Below, in pieces: positions 8,567 to 13,505 of a DNA stretch of 64,000 nt (positions are counted from its first letter, which is position 1; every line of letters starts with the position of its first letter). The position numbers and the translations under genes were made by a program. Location: NCBI RefSeq assembly GCF_009914755.1, contig NC_060933.1; one strand, 5' to 3'. This DNA is from the human T2T-CHM13v2.0 reference genome, Homo sapiens. The notes below the pieces were generated by a model. The model had not been told where the DNA came from. It searched no databases and saw only the letters and a program-made list of their open reading frames with translations.

Positions 8567-9690
8567 ATGGGCAACCTTCCACCCTCGATTCCCCCATCTT
8601 TTCCCTTAGCCTGTGTTCTTGAAAACCCCTTCAACTCACACCTGACCTAAAACCTAAATGCCTTATTTTCTTCTGCAATACCACTTGGCCCCAATACAAA
8701 CTCGAAAATAGTTCCAAGTGGCCAGAGAACGGCACTGTCAATTTGTCTATCCTACAAGACCTAGATAATTTTTGTCGAAAAATGGGCAAATGGTCGGAGG
8801 TGCCGTACATCCGGGCGTCTTTCACACTTCATTCTCTCCCTAGTCTCTGTTCCCAATGCGACTTGTCCCAAATCCTCCTTCTTTCCCTCCCACCTGTCCC
8901 TTCAGTCCCAACCCCAAGTGTTGCTGGGTCTTTTGAATCTTCCTTTTCTACCGACCCATCTGACCTCTCCCCTCCTCCCCAGACTGCTCCTCCTCAGGTC
9001 GCTCCCCACCAGGCTGAATCAGGCTCCAGCTCCTCTTCAGCCTCCGCTCCCCCACCCTATAACCCTTCTATCACCTCCCCTCCTCACACCCAGTCTGGCT
9101 TACAGTTTTGTTCTGCAACTAGCTCTCCCCAACCTGCCCAACAATTTCCTCTTAGAGAAGTGGCTGGAGCTGAAGGCATAGTCTGGGTACATGCGCCTTT
9201 TTCTGTATCAGACTTTTCCCAAATCAGCCAGTGTTTGGGCTCTTTCTCATCAGACCCCACTAAATATATACAGGAATTCCGATATCTAACTCTGTCCTGC
9301 AAGTTAACCTGCAGTGACTTAAATGTCATCCTGACTTCCACCCTCTCCCCAGATGAACAGGAAAGAGTTTTTTCTCTAGCCCAGTCTCACGCTGACAACC
9401 GCCGGCTTCATGAGCCAGGCCTCCAGGAAGGCATCAGAGCAGTTACCCGAGAGGACCCCCAAAGGAACTATCAGGCAGATTCCCCAGGTATAGCTAGGCG
9501 AGATTACATGATTTCCTGCCTAGTTGAAGGGCTTAAAAAGGCAGCACACAAAGCTGTTAATTCTGACAAGCTAAAGGAAACTACCCAAGGTAAAGGCGAA
9601 AACCCAGCCCAGTTCCTGGCCCGCTTGGCAGCAACCCTTAGACGCTTTACCGCCCTAGACCCAGAGGGGCCGGAAGGCCGCCTTATTCTT
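8567..9690 (+). pseudogene. HERV-H gag, 5' part (MA/CA), frameshifted near the N-terminus
   Basis: ATG at 8567 gives MGNLPPSIPP; the long ORF 8743.. contains PPPY and the MHR-like TTQGKGENPAQFLARL; it breaks at GRLIL where the insert's poly-T begins. Confidence 0.85.
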
Positions 9691-10811
9691 TTTTTTTTTT
9701 TTTAGATGTATTTTACTTTTATTTTTTTAATCTTTGGGCACAAAGATTTGACACATTATTTCAAAAGAATACAACTACTCATCCAGTGGGAATAAATTCA
9801 ACAAACATTAATTGATGAGCAAAGTACTGGCTTTAAAAAAATAAACTAAGTAAATTTTTTTTCCCTTGGGTAATAAAATAATAATAAAAGAAGAGACATT
9901 GGGTTAAGCACCCTTAGGGCAAAATAAAAATGCAATTGGTTTCTCAAAAACTTGCTTTTGACATCTCAAAAAAAGTCATGCTAGGGAAATGAGCTAAGAA
10001 AGCACATTGTTATTTGTACGTGGTAGTGTGACATCCTTGCCATGTTGAAGGTAAGACCATCTAAAGGTCAAGACAGTACACAGAGACTATAAAAACAAAA
10101 TTGAAATAAAAAGCAGGATAATAAAATGAAAGGAAAAGTAGAAACTGCCAGAAAGAAGCAGAAGCAGCACAACTGTCAAGGAGACAGTGTAAATTCAGAT
10201 GCCATCAAGCTTTACCACAAAGAGATAAAGGAAAAGGCCAATTTTGATGACAAATGACAAAGTGTAACATCCAAAGAGAAATGGAGAAAAAAGAGGTCAT
10301 CTGTCCTCCTGTGAACATTTGAATAGTTCTCAGATACACTTAGTTTGAGCAGAATTATGTGATTACTGAGTTCTTCCCTCTCTGCTTGGCAAAAATGATG
10401 GAAGTCTTGTCTCCAATTTTAACCCTATTTGCCTTTTTGCAACAATATGGCAGGTTGTTTACATGCTGGCTGGGGAAAGGGAAACTAAGAGTAAAAACCA
10501 ACCAGTTGTTACTTTGCAAAATGGAAATGTAACTCTGAGGATTAAGCAATCTTGACTGCTAACAAAATTAATTCCTGAACACCATGAAAAAGGAAAAAAT
10601 ACATAGAAATTGATATTTTAAACGTTAAATATTCAGCAGTTTCTCTTATTTGGCAAAATCTTTTTGAAGCAAAGCTGATCTCATTTTGGTTTAGATCACA
10701 TCAAAGAATTTCCACCAAAAATGACTGAATTATTGCTATTTACTAAAATGGTTTTCATTCTGTGACATTTTTCTGTTTCAACCAAAATTGGTGTACTAAA
10801 AGCCATTTCTG

Positions 10812-10968
10812 GCACTGACCATCTACAGTTAGTGCAGACTCCATAAGTTAAGGGCTTAATCCTTCACAAATCTTCTCTTCAGATTCCAGCTGTACTTTGG
10901 GGGTCCCCAGGTCACCCACACTTCTGAACAACTAGCTATAAATTTGGTGATTCCCATGACCCTGTTAG
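10812..10968 (+). mobile_element. MER21-like LTR fragment inside the transduced segment
   Basis: ttaagggct...ttcagat...ggtcacccacacttctga...ctataaat...ttcccatgaccc resembles MER21 consensus from memory. Confidence 0.5.
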
Positions 10969-11734
10969 TGTTACCGTGGGTCTTTGCTCACAGAGCTCCC
11001 AAGATGGTGGCGAGCCGCTTCCAAGATGGTGGCAAGCCTTGTGTTCTCTGACTTGGGGTTCTTGGCCTCACGGATTCCAAGGAATGGAATCTTGGGCCAT
11101 GCGATGAGTGTTATAGCTCTATTAGAAGCCGTGGGTCACGGAAGAGAACTGTGGAACCCAGTGACTAGTGTTCAGCTCGATTAGGACGAACCCAGGCACT
11201 TAGCCGTGCAAGAACAATGGGAAGCCTTTAGCACGATCGGGAGTGGCAATGGGAGTCTCACTGGGTCAGGAGCACAGCAGACACCCTGCCGGATCTGGAG
11301 GGATGGGAGTCAGCAGCAGGATGGGAGTCAGCGGCAGGTCTGCGACAGTGGCAAACAGCAGTGGTGGACGGGGAGCGAAAGCTCAGCTCGAGCCGTAACA
11401 AACATGGACCAGAAGAGTGCAGTTGCAAGATTTAATAGAGTGAAAACAGAGCTCCCATACAAAGGGAGGGGACCCAAAGGGGGTTGCCATTGCCGGCTTG
11501 AATGCCCGGGTTTATATCCCGATCCTTGTCCCTCCTGCTGTGCTCTCAGGCAAAAGGTGATTGGCTATTTCTTTACCTCCTGTTTTTGCCTAATTAGCAT
11601 TTTAGTGAGCTCTCTGATTGGTTGGGTGTGAGCTAAGTGGCAAGCCCCATGTTTAAAGGTGGATGCAGTCACCTTCCCAGCTACGCTTAGGGATTCTTAG
11701 TCGGCCTAGGAAATCCAGCTAGTCTTGTCTCTCA
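10969..11734 (-). mobile_element. LTR17 (HERV-W LTR), complete U3-R-U5
   Basis: Minus strand begins TGAGAGACAAGACTAGCTGGATTTCCTAGGCCGACTAAG after a purine tract and ends GGTAACA; TATA at 11511-11516; ATTAAA at 11431-11436. Confidence 0.92.
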
Positions 11735-11744
11735 GTGCCCTCTC

Positions 11745-12030
11745 TCAACAGGAAAACCCAAGTGCTGTTGGGGAGGTTGGCTGATGACCGCTGTAACTGC
11801 TTCCTGCTGAATTGGGGCATAGTAGGGGTTGCACAGTTGAGATTTCCTCGGGGGGGGTGCCTTCGATGTCATTAACATCGGAGCATGGGCTAGCAGGCTG
11901 GTCCAGGGGTCTGTGGTGGATCTTAGTCATGGACTGCATCTGGGGCTCCATTTGAAGAACCATTTGTAGTTTTACAGTTTCAATTCTGGAAGAGACAAAC
12001 TTAACAAGGAGGTTAAAGATACAGGGATTG
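11745..12030 (-). pseudogene. HERV-W env C-terminal fragment (end of TM and cytoplasmic tail)
   Basis: Translates to ...KFVSSRIETVKLQMVLQMEPQMQSMTKIHHRPLDQPASPCSDVNDIEGTPPEEIS..., homologous to the syncytin-1/MSRV tail. Confidence 0.88.
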
Positions 12031-12049
12031 AAATGTATGGCCTGCAGTG

Positions 12050-13491
12050 CAGGGAATTACTTCTTTGGCACACTTTACAGGCCCTGACTATCTGCTTGAT
12101 AGTTTTGAAAGACCTGGTCCAGTAAATAATAATTTGGCCATCTGATGGGTGCTATCAATGCCTAAGTGAAAGATTTGGTGAAGGGTTTAAAGTAATTTCC
12201 ATTGGTTAGCTGCAGGCATAAGTATTTTTCCTTCTTCGGTGGCTAGCCATCTTGAGGAGAGGAAACTATGTCTTCTTGAGGTTCCTCATTCTATTTCTTC
12301 TTCTGAGTACTGGGGCTTGGTTTCCTGGAGGGGATTACCTCATACTAGGGGTCCTTCTATAAGCATTTCTAATGGAGGGTCCTGCCTTGTGGCTCTTTTG
12401 GCTTCAATATCTGCTTGGCGGTTCCCTTCTATTTCCCTTTCCTTTCCTTTGTGGTGACCCCGGCAGTGTAAGACTGTCACCTCTTTAGGTTTCTGTACAG
12501 CCAATAGTAATCTCCTAATGGCTTCCAGATGTTTGATAGGTGTTTCCTTGGAAGTTAGGAATTCCCTTTCTCTCCATACTGCTGCATGGGCATGGAGGAC
12601 TAGGTGAGCATACTTAGAGTCTGTATATATATTTACCCTTTTCCCTTCTCCTAATTCTAGTTCCCGAGTGAGGGCTATTAGTTCTGCCAGCTGAGCACTA
12701 GTTCCTGGAGTGAGGGGATTACTTTCAAGTATTCCATTATCACTGACCACTGCATACCCTGCTTTTCAAAGCCCTTTTTCTACAAAGGAACTTCCATCAG
12801 TATACAAGTTGAGGTCGGGATCAGTCACGGGAACCTCTAAAAGGTCCCCTCTAGCGGCACTGGTTTGAGCAATTACTTGTTGACAGTTATGTTCTATCTT
12901 TTCTTCATTGTCTGGAAGAAATGTGGCTGGGTTAAGAGTTGCACAAGTGCACAGTCGCAGCACTGGCCCTTCAAGTAATACAGCTTGATATTTAAGTAAA
13001 TGGTTGTCTGACAGCCACAAGTCTCCTTTAGCAGTGAGTATGCTGTTTACATCATGAGATGGCCACACAGTAAGATCACCTGTATTATTTTAACTGCTTC
13101 AGATACTAAGACTGCTACTGCTGCCACTATCCGTAAACAATGGGGCCAACCCTTTACCACTCCATCAATTTCCTTACTCAGGTATGCCACGTGTTGCAAG
13201 CTCATCCCTCGGACCTGTGTAAGGACTCCTAGAGCTATTCCTGTTTCTTCTGTGACATATAAAGAAAAGTCTTGCCCCATTGGCAAGCTTAACACTGGGG
13301 CTTGGGTTAGGGCCTTCTTTAGGGCCTGGAAAGCCGCTTCTGCTTCAGGTGTCCATCTTACTAAATGGGTATTGGCTTTCTGAGTTTCCTTAATTAGTGT
13401 ATATAATGGCCTGGCTATTTCGCTGTACCTGGGAATCCATATTCGGCAGAAGCCTGTTATGCCAAGGAACCCTCTTAGTTGCTTTTGGGTT
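12050..13491 (-). pseudogene. HERV-W pol fragment (RT C-terminus/connection, RNase H, integrase N-terminus), disrupted
   Basis: ORF track pieces QLRGFLGITGFCRIWIP, LYTDGSSF, SAQLAELIAL, NIYTDSKYA and GNRQAD lie in shifting frames. Confidence 0.9.
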
Positions 13492-13505
13492 GCCGCCTTA
13501 TTCTT

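What the first reader, a model, noticed from the sequence alone, without database searches (positions are those of the whole stretch)
9677..13505. Nested mobile system: L1-retroposed HERV-W read-through RNA with a ~1.27-kb 3' transduction, inserted into HERV-H gag
Seen: a 14-bp TSD GCCGCCTTATTCTT (9677-9690, 13492-13505), an L1-endonuclease-like TTCTT/AA target, a poly(A) tail (T run to 9703) with AATAAA 14 nt upstream (9718-9723), and 5' truncation inside RT. These are all TPRT hallmarks. Established: HERV-W is unusual in having many L1-made processed copies, but these normally end at the R region of the 3' LTR. Here the LTR17 is complete, including U5 (10969-11734), and is followed by 9704-10968 of non-HERV-W sequence before the tail. 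Inference: a source provirus elsewhere read through its weak ATTAAA, was polyadenylated in flanking host DNA and was copied by L1, which amounts to an ERV-driven 3' transduction. The flank (with a MER21-like piece next to the LTR) and an 18-bp tandem duplication in U5 (11301-11336) are barcodes for the parent. This is my best candidate for an under-described feature. The locus itself may already be catalogued as a HERV-W copy.
Basis: partly seen in the sequence, partly recalled or inferred. Interest (0 to 1): 0.85.

Follow-up and report, generated by a model that had tools for sequence, protein, structure and literature searches.

The report
HERV-W read-through retrocopy carrying host DNA
A piece of the endogenous retrovirus HERV-W in an intron of CD72 is not a viral integration, as catalogues list it, but an L1-made copy of a transcript that ran past the viral end on chromosome 1 and carried 1.27 kb of chromosome-1 DNA with it, which identifies its parent.

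Summary
Window 9691-13491 (minus strand) has four parts. They are a 5'-truncated HERV-W pol-env remnant, a complete 766-nt 3' LTR, 1265 nt of non-HERV-W DNA with AATAAA, and an A13 tail. A perfect 14-bp target-site duplication flanks it at a TTCTT/AA nick site in the gag of an older ERV. The 1265-nt segment has one paralogue in this genome, at chr1:192.23 Mb. The alignment runs colinearly from the poly(A) point through the whole LTR (1919/2066) and stops at both edges. The chr1 LTR is a solo LTR with a 4-bp TTAG duplication. A published table lists a 776-bp human solo LTR there, a 7.8-kb provirus at the orthologous gibbon site and nothing in rhesus. So L1 copied a read-through RNA of a 1q31 provirus that later collapsed to a solo LTR. 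Two published catalogues list this locus as a provirus. A second catalogued "provirus", in ANO3 intron 14, has the same architecture. It starts at R of its 5' LTR, and the source site of its flank on chr6 is empty. The 18-bp U5 duplication is not shared with the parent. Interest is moderate: a new variant of two known processes.

The parts
9677..9690 (.). Left copy of the 14-bp target-site duplication GCCGCCTTATTCTT. It is host ERV gag sequence, and its 3' end is the L1-endonuclease-type nick site TTCTT/AA.
   Evidence: (D11). The paralogue L028 has the 14-mer once, and the two window flanks overlap on it by 14 bp.
9691..9703 (-). Poly(A) tail of the retrocopy, seen as T13 on the + strand.
   Evidence: The chr1 parent has no A/T run at the homologous point.
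9704..10968 (-). Transduced segment: 1265 nt copied from the DNA downstream of a HERV-W 3' LTR on chr1 (T2T chr1:192232395-192233649). It contains the poly(A) signal used, AATAAA (9718-9723 as TTTATT). It also contains a piece of an old interspersed repeat (about 10771-10968) and the parent's integration-site tetranucleotide TTAG (10965-10968).
   Evidence: a single paralogue at 96%; colinear alignment; 45 substitutions in 1251 aligned sites and 3 indels; the old repeat is contiguous across the chr1 LTR insertion site in paralogues L004, L005, L008 and L009.
10969..11734 (-). Complete HERV-W 3' LTR (LTR17 type, U3-R-U5, 766 nt). The bypassed ATTAAA lies at 11431-11436 (LTR positions 299-304). 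The canonical cleavage point of the family is about 11418-11420, so U5 is about 10969-11417. The 18-bp tandem duplication at 11301-11336 is private to this copy.
   Evidence: 34 substitutions in 745 aligned sites against the chr1 solo LTR; 9 of the 11 nearest copies end at LTR positions 315-317 followed by an A-rich run.
11735..12048 (-). End of HERV-W env (cytoplasmic-tail codons) and the 3' untranslated stretch. It is joined to pol by the family's common 2.3-kb deletion.
   Evidence: window 12026-11017 aligns to L023 5802-4814, and 2313 nt of the chr7 copy are missing here. The tail peptide resembles the end of the 540-codon env frame of the chr7 locus; 34 of 39 other loci cross this junction colinearly.
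12049..13491 (-). HERV-W pol fragment, from the end of RT through the connection domain and RNase H to the N-terminal zinc finger of integrase. Stop codons and frameshifts break it. The 5' truncation point of the retrocopy is at 13491.
   Evidence: RT_RNaseH_2 at 2.4e-9, RNase_H at 3.4e-18, Integrase_H2C2 at 3.7e-5 (below the cut-off); 91.2% identity to the chr7 locus. for the reading frames.
13492..13505 (.). Right copy of the 14-bp target-site duplication.
8623..9676 (+). Host element to the left of the insertion: the gag reading frame of an older, very abundant gammaretrovirus-like ERV.
   Evidence: Gag_p30 profile positions 11-155 of 201; 1100 first-look candidates, of which 40 were scored; the 39 other than the window's own stretch are 84-91% identical.
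13506..13646 (+). Host element to the right of the insertion. The same gag frame continues.
   Evidence: Gag_p30 profile positions 163-200 of 201; contiguous with the left flank in paralogue L028.

Best explanation
A HERV-W provirus integrated on chromosome 1 (1q31; T2T chr1:192.234 Mb, minus strand) into an old repeat and made a TTAG duplication. One of its transcripts was not cleaved at the LTR's ATTAAA signal. It ran through U5 and 1265 nt of host DNA and was polyadenylated 14 nt after a host AATAAA.

The L1 machinery then acted on this RNA. It nicked a TTCTT/AA site in the gag of an older ERV in what is now CD72 intron 1, primed on the poly(A) tail and reverse-transcribed the RNA. It stopped or was cut short inside pol. 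The result is a 3.8-kb retrocopy with a 14-bp target-site duplication. Later the chr1 provirus recombined between its LTRs and is now a solo LTR.

The element is therefore a HERV-W processed pseudogene with a 3' transduction, not an integrase-made provirus.

Shown directly: the TPRT hallmarks, the unique colinear parent locus, the solo state of the parent and its TTAG duplication.

Inferred: that the RNA started at the provirus's own 5' LTR, since the 5' end is missing here; the order and dates of the events; and that the gibbon provirus in the published table is the surviving parent.
For: 1. TPRT hallmarks. There is a perfect 14-bp TSD, an A13 tail, AATAAA 14 nt upstream and a TTCTT/AA nick site. 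A paralogous empty site in L028 confirms the duplication.

2. Parent locus. Window 9704-10968 has one paralogue in the whole genome, at 96%. Window 9704-11734 aligns colinearly to chr1 with 1919/2066 identities. Homology ends exactly at the poly(A) point and at the U3 edge of the LTR.

3. Direction of copying. Chr1 has no A-run at the cleavage point and continues with unique DNA. The old repeat next to the LTR continues on the far side of the chr1 LTR, as shown by paralogues L004, L005, L008 and L009. Chr9 holds only the near half.

4. The chr1 LTR is solo. It is 776 bp with TG..CA ends and a TTAG/TTAG duplication, and there is no HERV-W interior within 20 kb.

5. The two LTRs share private variants against 3 other LTR17 copies. 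They differ at 34 of 745 sites, whereas the chr9 LTR is 85-88% identical to the other full-length LTRs.

6. Family norm. Of the 11 nearest HERV-W copies, 9 end at LTR positions 315-317 plus a poly(A) tail. This copy clearly departs from that.

7. Published tables, read as supplement passages of PMC5775608.
- Human solo LTR hg19 1:192855545-192856320, which is 776 bp. It is solo in chimpanzee, gorilla and orangutan, spans 7.8 kb in gibbon, and is marked 'x' in rhesus.
- Locus 9p13.3 is present in chimpanzee, gorilla, orangutan and gibbon, and marked 'x' in rhesus.
- The hg19-to-T2T offset (621,895) fits 5 of 5 RGS-domain clusters on chr1. The hg19 gene positions used for this check are recalled.
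- The 7.8-kb gibbon length fits a 10.2-kb reference minus the 2.3-kb deletion seen here.

8. A second locus with the same architecture starts at R of its 5' LTR. This shows that LTR-initiated read-through RNAs were substrates for L1.
Against: - The 5' end is truncated. The promoter that made this RNA is therefore unknown, and a host transcript running through the provirus is not excluded.
- Parent and copy differ by 8 indels in 2 kb: the 18-bp duplication, a 10-nt unit, a 21/22-nt unit, 13 nt, 4 nt and three small ones. Each needs a later, independent event or a difference between the parent's two LTRs.
- Dating shows a mild mismatch. K2P divergence is 0.041. At 0.13% per Myr per lineage, the rate used in PMC5016936, this gives about 16 Myr. 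That is somewhat younger than the gibbon split, which I recall as about 17-20 Myr and which the published gibbon ortholog implies as a lower bound.
- Equating the hg19 solo LTR with the T2T locus rests on equal length and an offset checked with recalled gene coordinates.
- The gibbon and rhesus sequences themselves could not be examined.
Confidence: 0.93

Rival explanations
1. The architecture and the L1 mechanism are as in the best explanation, but the RNA was not started by the HERV-W 5' LTR. A host or other upstream promoter on chr1 transcribed through the provirus, and that RNA ended at the same host AATAAA.
For: The retrocopy is 5'-truncated in pol, so no start site is preserved. A poly(A) site 1265 nt downstream could belong to a host transcript.
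Against: The chr1 locus lies about 75 kb beyond the last RGS-domain cluster, which is on the opposite strand; the gene names and the gene-poor nature of the interval are recalled. The second case (ANO3) begins at LTR position 247, the R start, so it was initiated by an LTR. HERV-W RNAs were frequent L1 substrates: 135 processed pseudogenes are reported in PMC5016936.
Confidence: 0.1
2. There were two independent insertions at chr9: a HERV-W element, and separately a retrocopy of a chr1 transcript that happened to land next to it.
For: None specific.
Against: The LTR-flank junction, including TTAG, is identical in arrangement on chr1 and chr9, and the alignment crosses it without a break. A single 14-bp TSD encloses both parts. 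The segment has no TSD of its own.
Confidence: 0.01
3. A DNA-level (segmental) duplication or gene conversion moved provirus plus flank from chr1 to chr9.
For: 93-96% identity over 2 kb is within the range seen for old segmental duplications.
Against: One edge of homology is exactly a cleavage site 14 nt after AATAAA, followed by an A13 run that is absent from chr1. The insert is flanked by a 14-bp TSD at an L1-type nick site.
Confidence: 0.01
4. The insert is a template-switch chimera. L1 reverse transcriptase started on an unrelated polyadenylated chr1 RNA and jumped to a HERV-W RNA.
For: Chimeric retrocopies made by template switching are a known L1 product (recalled).
Against: The junction reproduces the genomic contiguity U5-TTAG-flank of chr1 base for base. 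A normal HERV-W RNA has no U5 downstream of U3-R to jump onto.
Confidence: 0.01

Closest known systems
Canonical HERV-W processed pseudogenes made by L1 (Pavlicek et al. 2002, as summarised in Grandi et al. 2016, PMC5016936)
   Same: A HERV-W RNA copied in trans by L1. It has a poly(A) tail, a TSD in the 5-15 bp range, a TT/AAAA-type nick site and frequent 5' truncation. The interior is the same deleted form.
   Different: The canonical 3' LTR is U3-R, ending near position 326 with the tail directly attached; 9 of the 11 nearest copies look like this. Here the LTR is complete, and the tail follows 1265 nt of foreign DNA.
3' transduction by L1 and SVA
   Same: A weak element-internal poly(A) signal is bypassed. 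Cleavage occurs at a downstream host signal, and the flank travels with the element and marks its source locus.
   Different: The transducing transcript comes from an LTR retrovirus, which does not normally move by TPRT. The source is identified as a provirus that has since become a solo LTR. My searches found no paper describing this for an ERV.
HERV-W provirus, the class under which this locus is catalogued: 9p13.3* in PMC5016936, and 'CD72 intron 1 proviral element, 3' LTR' in PMC3031232
   Same: It has a complete U3-R-U5 LTR, which is the criterion those catalogues use.
   Different: It has no 5' LTR and no 4-bp duplication around the element. A 14-bp TSD and a poly(A) tail lie outside the annotated 2.5 kb.

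Membership tests
L1-mediated (TPRT) retrocopy | Poly(A) tail at the 3' end, preceded by a poly(A) signal | tested here: met
   A13 at 9691-9703 and AATAAA 14 nt upstream. The tail is absent from the parent locus.
L1-mediated (TPRT) retrocopy | Target-site duplication of about 5-20 bp, present once in the empty site | tested here: met
   A 14-bp perfect repeat. It occurs once in the paralogous copy L028, where the flanks overlap by 14 bp. The orthologous empty site in monkeys was not examined; 'x' in rhesus is taken from the PMC5775608 supplement.
L1-mediated (TPRT) retrocopy | Nick site resembling TTTT/AA | tested here: met
   TTCTT/AATATG.
L1-mediated (TPRT) retrocopy | An identifiable parent locus colinear with the copy | tested here: met
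   Chr1:192232395-192234425, 1919/2066 identities, the only hit in the genome.
HERV-W (HERV17 / LTR17) | Interior and LTR similar to the chr7 locus that carries the long env frame. The name ERVW-1 / syncytin-1 for that locus is recalled. | tested here: met
   Pol is 91.2% identical, and env tail plus LTR 87.9%, to L023, which holds a 540-codon env frame. The Repbase consensus was not available.
Canonical HERV-W processed pseudogene | 3' LTR truncated to U3-R (ending near position 326) with the tail directly attached | tested here: not met
   The LTR is complete at 766 nt, and the tail lies 1265 nt further downstream.
Canonical HERV-W processed pseudogene | 5' LTR reduced to R-U5 | not testable with these tools
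   The copy is 5'-truncated in pol.
Integrase-made HERV-W provirus | Two LTRs flanked by a 4-bp duplication at the locus | tested here: not met
   There is one LTR only. A single TTAG lies on the U5 side, inherited from chr1. The element is enclosed by a 14-bp TSD instead.
3' transduction | Source-flank DNA lies between the element's end and the poly(A) tail, and the source still shows that flank next to the element | tested here: met
3' transduction | The transducing element is itself a TPRT (non-LTR) retrotransposon | tested here: not met
   The RNA is retroviral, with pol, an env tail and an LTR. It was mobilised in trans.
HERV-H (host element) | Family-specific LTR7 and a tRNA-His primer-binding site | not tested
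Only Gag_p30 and high copy number were shown.

The most novel reading that the evidence does not exclude
Read-through retrocopies form a hidden class among catalogued HERV-W 'proviruses'. Elements with a complete 3' LTR but no proviral 5' LTR would be L1-made copies whose true 3' end lies up to a kilobase or more outside the annotation.

Their transduced flanks would give parent-offspring pairs for an endogenous retrovirus. They would also reveal source proviruses that no longer exist in the genome. The 1q31 parent is now a solo LTR. The parent of the ANO3 copy has left only an empty site on chr6 and no LTR closer than 88% anywhere in this genome.

Both of the two '3'-LTR-only' proviral elements of PMC3031232 that I tested have this structure.
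Probability: 0.35. Interest if true: 0.68.

Novelty: new variant of a known kind. Interest (0 to 1): 0.55.

Why it matters
1. Classification. The locus moves from 'provirus' to 'L1 retrocopy'. The LTR-completeness rule used to sort the 213 HERV-W loci is therefore not sufficient. Counts of integrase-made integrations, and ages derived from them, may be slightly inflated.

2. Source tracing. The transduced flank gives a rare, direct parent-offspring link for a HERV-W retrocopy. It shows that the 1q31 provirus was transcribed in the germ line before it collapsed to a solo LTR. The retrocopy preserves a snapshot of the parent's deleted interior and 3' LTR.

3. Mechanism. An LTR retrovirus can move host DNA by way of L1, in the manner of L1 and SVA 3' transduction.

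4. A practical consequence. A published qPCR assay was meant to measure the 'non-repetitive region 3' of the element' in CD72 intron 1. It lies inside the transduced segment (window 10408-10477). That segment is part of the retrocopy and is 96% identical to chr1.

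Tried and rejected
- Pavlicek et al. 2002 could not be read, neither by DOI nor as PMC155283. 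Costas 2002 is not in the library. Either paper may mention read-through copies, and I could not check.
- Additional file 1 of Grandi 2016, with coordinates and class per locus, is not held as text; only 2,545 characters of supplements were searchable. The 'provirus' label therefore comes from the asterisk in the paper's table of HERV-W loci inside coding genes.
- Five literature searches looked for an ERV read-through retrocopy or ERV 3' transduction. None returned a paper describing it. 'read-through' and 'readthrough' have 0 occurrences in PMC5537654. 'read-through' has 0 occurrences in PMC5016936 and PMC5775608.
- I planned a screen of the 3' and 5' ends of 20 further HERV-W loci. Only two small loci sets for one further element were then obtained.
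- The two full-LTR copies among the 11 nearest relatives (L013, L020) show no A-run within about 720 nt downstream. This is uninformative.
- For the ANO3 copy I considered splicing from the LTR edge to an acceptor-like CCCCAG| on chr6. I set it aside because no LTR closer than 88% exists in the genome.

Full report
**1. Observation**

- GCCGCCTTATTCTT occurs at 9677-9690 and again at 13492-13505.
- Inside the left copy lies a T13 run (9691-9703).
- Fourteen bases further on is TTTATT (9718-9723), which is AATAAA on the minus strand.
- The uninterrupted target would read ...GCCGCCTTATTCTT/AATATG. That is a TTCTT/AA nick site for a minus-strand insert.

A paralogous copy of the host element on chr20 (L028) carries the 14-mer once. 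The left and right window flanks map to L028 2085-2484 and 2471-2866, so they overlap by exactly the 14 bp. This serves as a paralogous empty site and removes chance as an explanation for the repeat.

The host element is a gammaretrovirus-like gag.
- The left flank matches Gag_p30 profile positions 11-155.
- The right flank matches positions 163-200.
- The family is very abundant: 1100 first-look candidates, of which 40 were scored; the 39 other than the window's own stretch are 84-91% identical.
- I did not test the name HERV-H.

**2. Anatomy of the insert (minus strand, 5' to 3')**

- 13491-12049 is HERV-W pol. Pfam finds RT_RNaseH_2, RNase_H and a partial integrase zinc finger. The stretch is 91.2% identical to a chr7 locus (L023) that holds a 540-codon env frame beginning MALPYHIF. 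I recall that locus as ERVW-1.
- 12048-11735 is the end of env plus the untranslated stretch.
- Relative to the chr7 copy, 2313 nt (integrase core and most of env) are missing.
- This deletion is not private. Of 39 other genomic loci scored, 34 cross the junction colinearly. Grandi et al. 2016 describe recurrent deletions at 6797-7692 and 7928-9114 in 84-85% of HERV-W sequences (PMC5016936, passages read).
- 11734-10969 is a complete 766-nt LTR with ATTAAA at LTR positions 299-304.
- 10968-9704 is not HERV-W.
- The tail follows.

**3. Family norm**

Of the 11 genomic copies closest to the interior, 9 end at LTR positions 315-317 followed directly by an A-rich run. The other 2 have full LTRs. 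All 13 LTRs examined carry ATTAAA at the same place. The bypassed signal is therefore the family's ordinary, non-canonical hexamer and not a mutation of this source.

**4. The parent**

A whole-genome search with 9704-10968 returned one long hit besides the window itself: chr1:192232395-192233629, at 96% over query positions 1-1232. The 39 other hits are all confined to query positions 1068-1265 at 69-88% identity, which marks an old interspersed repeat.

Pairwise alignment extends the chr1 match.
- Window 9704-11734 aligns to L002 1501-3531 with 1919 of 2066 columns identical.
- This covers the flank plus the entire LTR.
- Homology stops exactly at the poly(A) point, where chr1 continues with unrelated unique DNA and has no A-run.
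- It also stops exactly at the U3 edge of the LTR.

On chr1 the LTR is solitary.
- It is 776 bp (chr1:192233650-192234425) with TG..CA ends.
- It is flanked by TTAG on both sides.
- There is no HERV-W interior within 20 kb.

Four paralogues of the old repeat (L004, L005, L008, L009) are contiguous across the chr1 insertion point. Chr1 is therefore a genuine integrase-type integration site. The chr9 insert holds only the half of that repeat adjacent to U5, together with one TTAG (10965-10968). This fixes the direction of copying as chr1 to chr9.

The two LTRs share private variants not seen in three other full LTR17 copies.

**5. Divergence between copy and parent**

| Region | Substitutions / aligned sites | Percent |
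|---|---|---|
| Flank | 45 / 1251 | 3.6% |
| LTR | 34 / 745 | 4.6% (half at CpG sites) |
| Overall | 79 / 1996 | K2P 0.041 |

There are 8 indels.
- The 18-bp tandem duplication at 11301-11336 occurs only in the chr9 copy; none of the 4 other LTRs has it. It is not a barcode of the parent as the parent exists today.
- The chr9 LTR lacks one 10-nt TTTCACTCTN unit immediately upstream of ATTAAA. All 4 other LTRs have it.
- The loss of that unit may have been in the parent's 3' LTR, in which case it may have weakened 3'-end processing. It may instead have arisen later. Human data cannot decide this.

**6. Published context**

Grandi et al. 2016 list '9p13.3* (-) CD72 Int 1 (-)', and their asterisk marks proviruses (PMC5016936, table passage). 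Their rule is that a complete LTR means provirus and a truncated LTR means pseudogene (section 5 read in full).

Li and Karlsson 2011 list the locus as an intronic 'proviral element' with a 3' LTR only (PMC3031232, section 16). Their '3' region' primers map to window 10408-10432 and 10459-10477, which is inside the transduced segment. The forward primer is identical on chr1, and the reverse site has two mismatches there.

The supplement of Grandi et al. 2018 (PMC5775608, passages read) gives two relevant rows.

|---|---|---|---|---|---|
| 9p13.3 | about 2.5 kb | about 2.5 kb | about 2.5 kb | about 3.0 kb | x |
| Human solo LTR hg19 1:192855545-192856320 (776 bp) | solo | solo | solo | 9:23097469-23105282 (7.8 kb) | x |

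- The 2.5-kb span of the 9p13.3 orthologues in the great apes equals the HERV-W part alone (13491-10969, which is 2523 nt). The annotation therefore stops at the LTR.
- The 776-bp length of the human solo LTR equals what I measured.
- The offset from hg19 to T2T (621,895) places five RGS-domain clusters where I expected them from recalled hg19 gene positions.
- I therefore equate the two loci.
- A 7.8-kb provirus is the size expected for a 10.2-kb reference minus the 2.3-kb deletion.

**7. Inferred history**

These steps are inferred, not shown.
1. The provirus integrated at 1q31 after the split from Old World monkeys.
2. Read-through transcription and L1 retroposition into 9p13.3 followed, before the gibbon split.
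3. LTR-LTR recombination at 1q31 took place in the great-ape stem.

The divergence-based age is about 16 Myr at 0.13% per Myr per lineage (rate from PMC5016936). This is a little young for that bracket. I count it as a mild discrepancy.

**8. Rivals**

- A host-promoter transcript through the provirus cannot be excluded, because the 5' end is lost. I give it about 10%.
- Two independent insertions, a DNA-level duplication and a template-switch chimera are each contradicted. The colinear U5-TTAG-flank junction, the single enclosing TSD, and the tail placed exactly after AATAAA all argue against them.

**9. A second case, found in passing**

The only other '3'-LTR-only' intronic provirus of PMC3031232 lies in ANO3 intron 14 (11p14.2* in PMC5016936). 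It has the same build on T2T chr11.
- It has a complete 3' LTR (L029 2740-1965).
- 1002 nt of non-HERV-W DNA follow, with AATAAA about 15-20 nt before an A15 tail (L029 962-948).
- A degraded 17-bp TSD (14 of 17 matching) lies at a TTTCT/AAAA site.
- The 5' end falls at LTR position 247, giving an R-U5 5' LTR.
- This RNA therefore started at the retroviral start site and read through the 3' LTR.

Its 1002-nt segment has one paralogue, chr6:167765835-167766836, at 94%.
- Homology ends exactly at the LTR edge and at the cleavage site.
- Chr6 has no LTR17 within 1.5 kb.
- No LTR anywhere in the genome is closer than 88% to this copy's LTR (40 of 816 candidates scored).
- The parent provirus is therefore absent from this genome. 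It was either never fixed or was lost.

Both of the two '3'-LTR-only' elements tested are read-through retrocopies.

**10. Novelty and score**

L1-made HERV-W pseudogenes are textbook, and so is 3' transduction by L1 and SVA. An ERV transcript acting as the transducing RNA, with an identified parent, did not turn up in five full-text searches or in the three Grandi papers. I could not read Pavlicek 2002 or Costas 2002. I rate the finding a new variant of a known kind, with interest 0.55.

Noticed in passing
L029 (chr11:26729099-26732127), L030 (chr11:26737052-26740073), L032 (chr6:167764335-167768336): The catalogued HERV-W 'provirus' in ANO3 intron 14 (11p14.2) is a second read-through L1 retrocopy. 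In order it has an R-U5 5' LTR, the interior, a complete 3' LTR, 1002 nt of flank with AATAAA, and an A15 tail. A 17-bp TSD (14/17 matching) lies at a TTTCT/AAAA site. Its flank maps to a chr6 site that holds no LTR, and no LTR closer than 88% exists in the genome, so the parent provirus is gone.
   Followed up: partly
window 10408-10432 (+) and 10459-10477 (-): The published qPCR primers for the 'non-repetitive 3' region' of the CD72-intron HERV-W element (PMC3031232, Table 2) lie inside the transduced chr1-derived segment. The forward primer is identical at the chr1 parent locus, and the reverse site has 2 mismatches there.
   Followed up: yes
window 11437-11446 region (LTR positions about 289-298): The retrocopy's LTR lacks one of two tandem 10-nt TTTCACTCTN units directly upstream of the ATTAAA signal. 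All 4 other LTR17 copies aligned have both units, including the chr1 parent. Whether this was in the parent's 3' LTR and favoured read-through is open.
   Followed up: partly
window 7188-7404 and 16402-16618: A 217-bp direct repeat (88% identical), each copy ending in the start of an Alu, brackets the host ERV and the Alu cluster that follows it. No 3' LTR of the host ERV was found up to 20000, so the host element appears to be truncated near 14340 by Alu insertions. The repeat is unexplained.
   Followed up: no
window 7477-8010: The 5' LTR of the host ERV begins TGTCAGGCCTCTGAGCCC. It is followed at about 8008 by a TGGTGC... primer-binding-site-like stretch.
   Followed up: no
window 10995-11038; L002; L013; L020; L023: The 21-22-nt unit near the U5 end of LTR17 varies in copy number between copies. 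There are 2 units in the chr9 retrocopy, 3 in the chr1 parent and in two other copies, and 1 in the chr7 3' LTR.
   Followed up: partly
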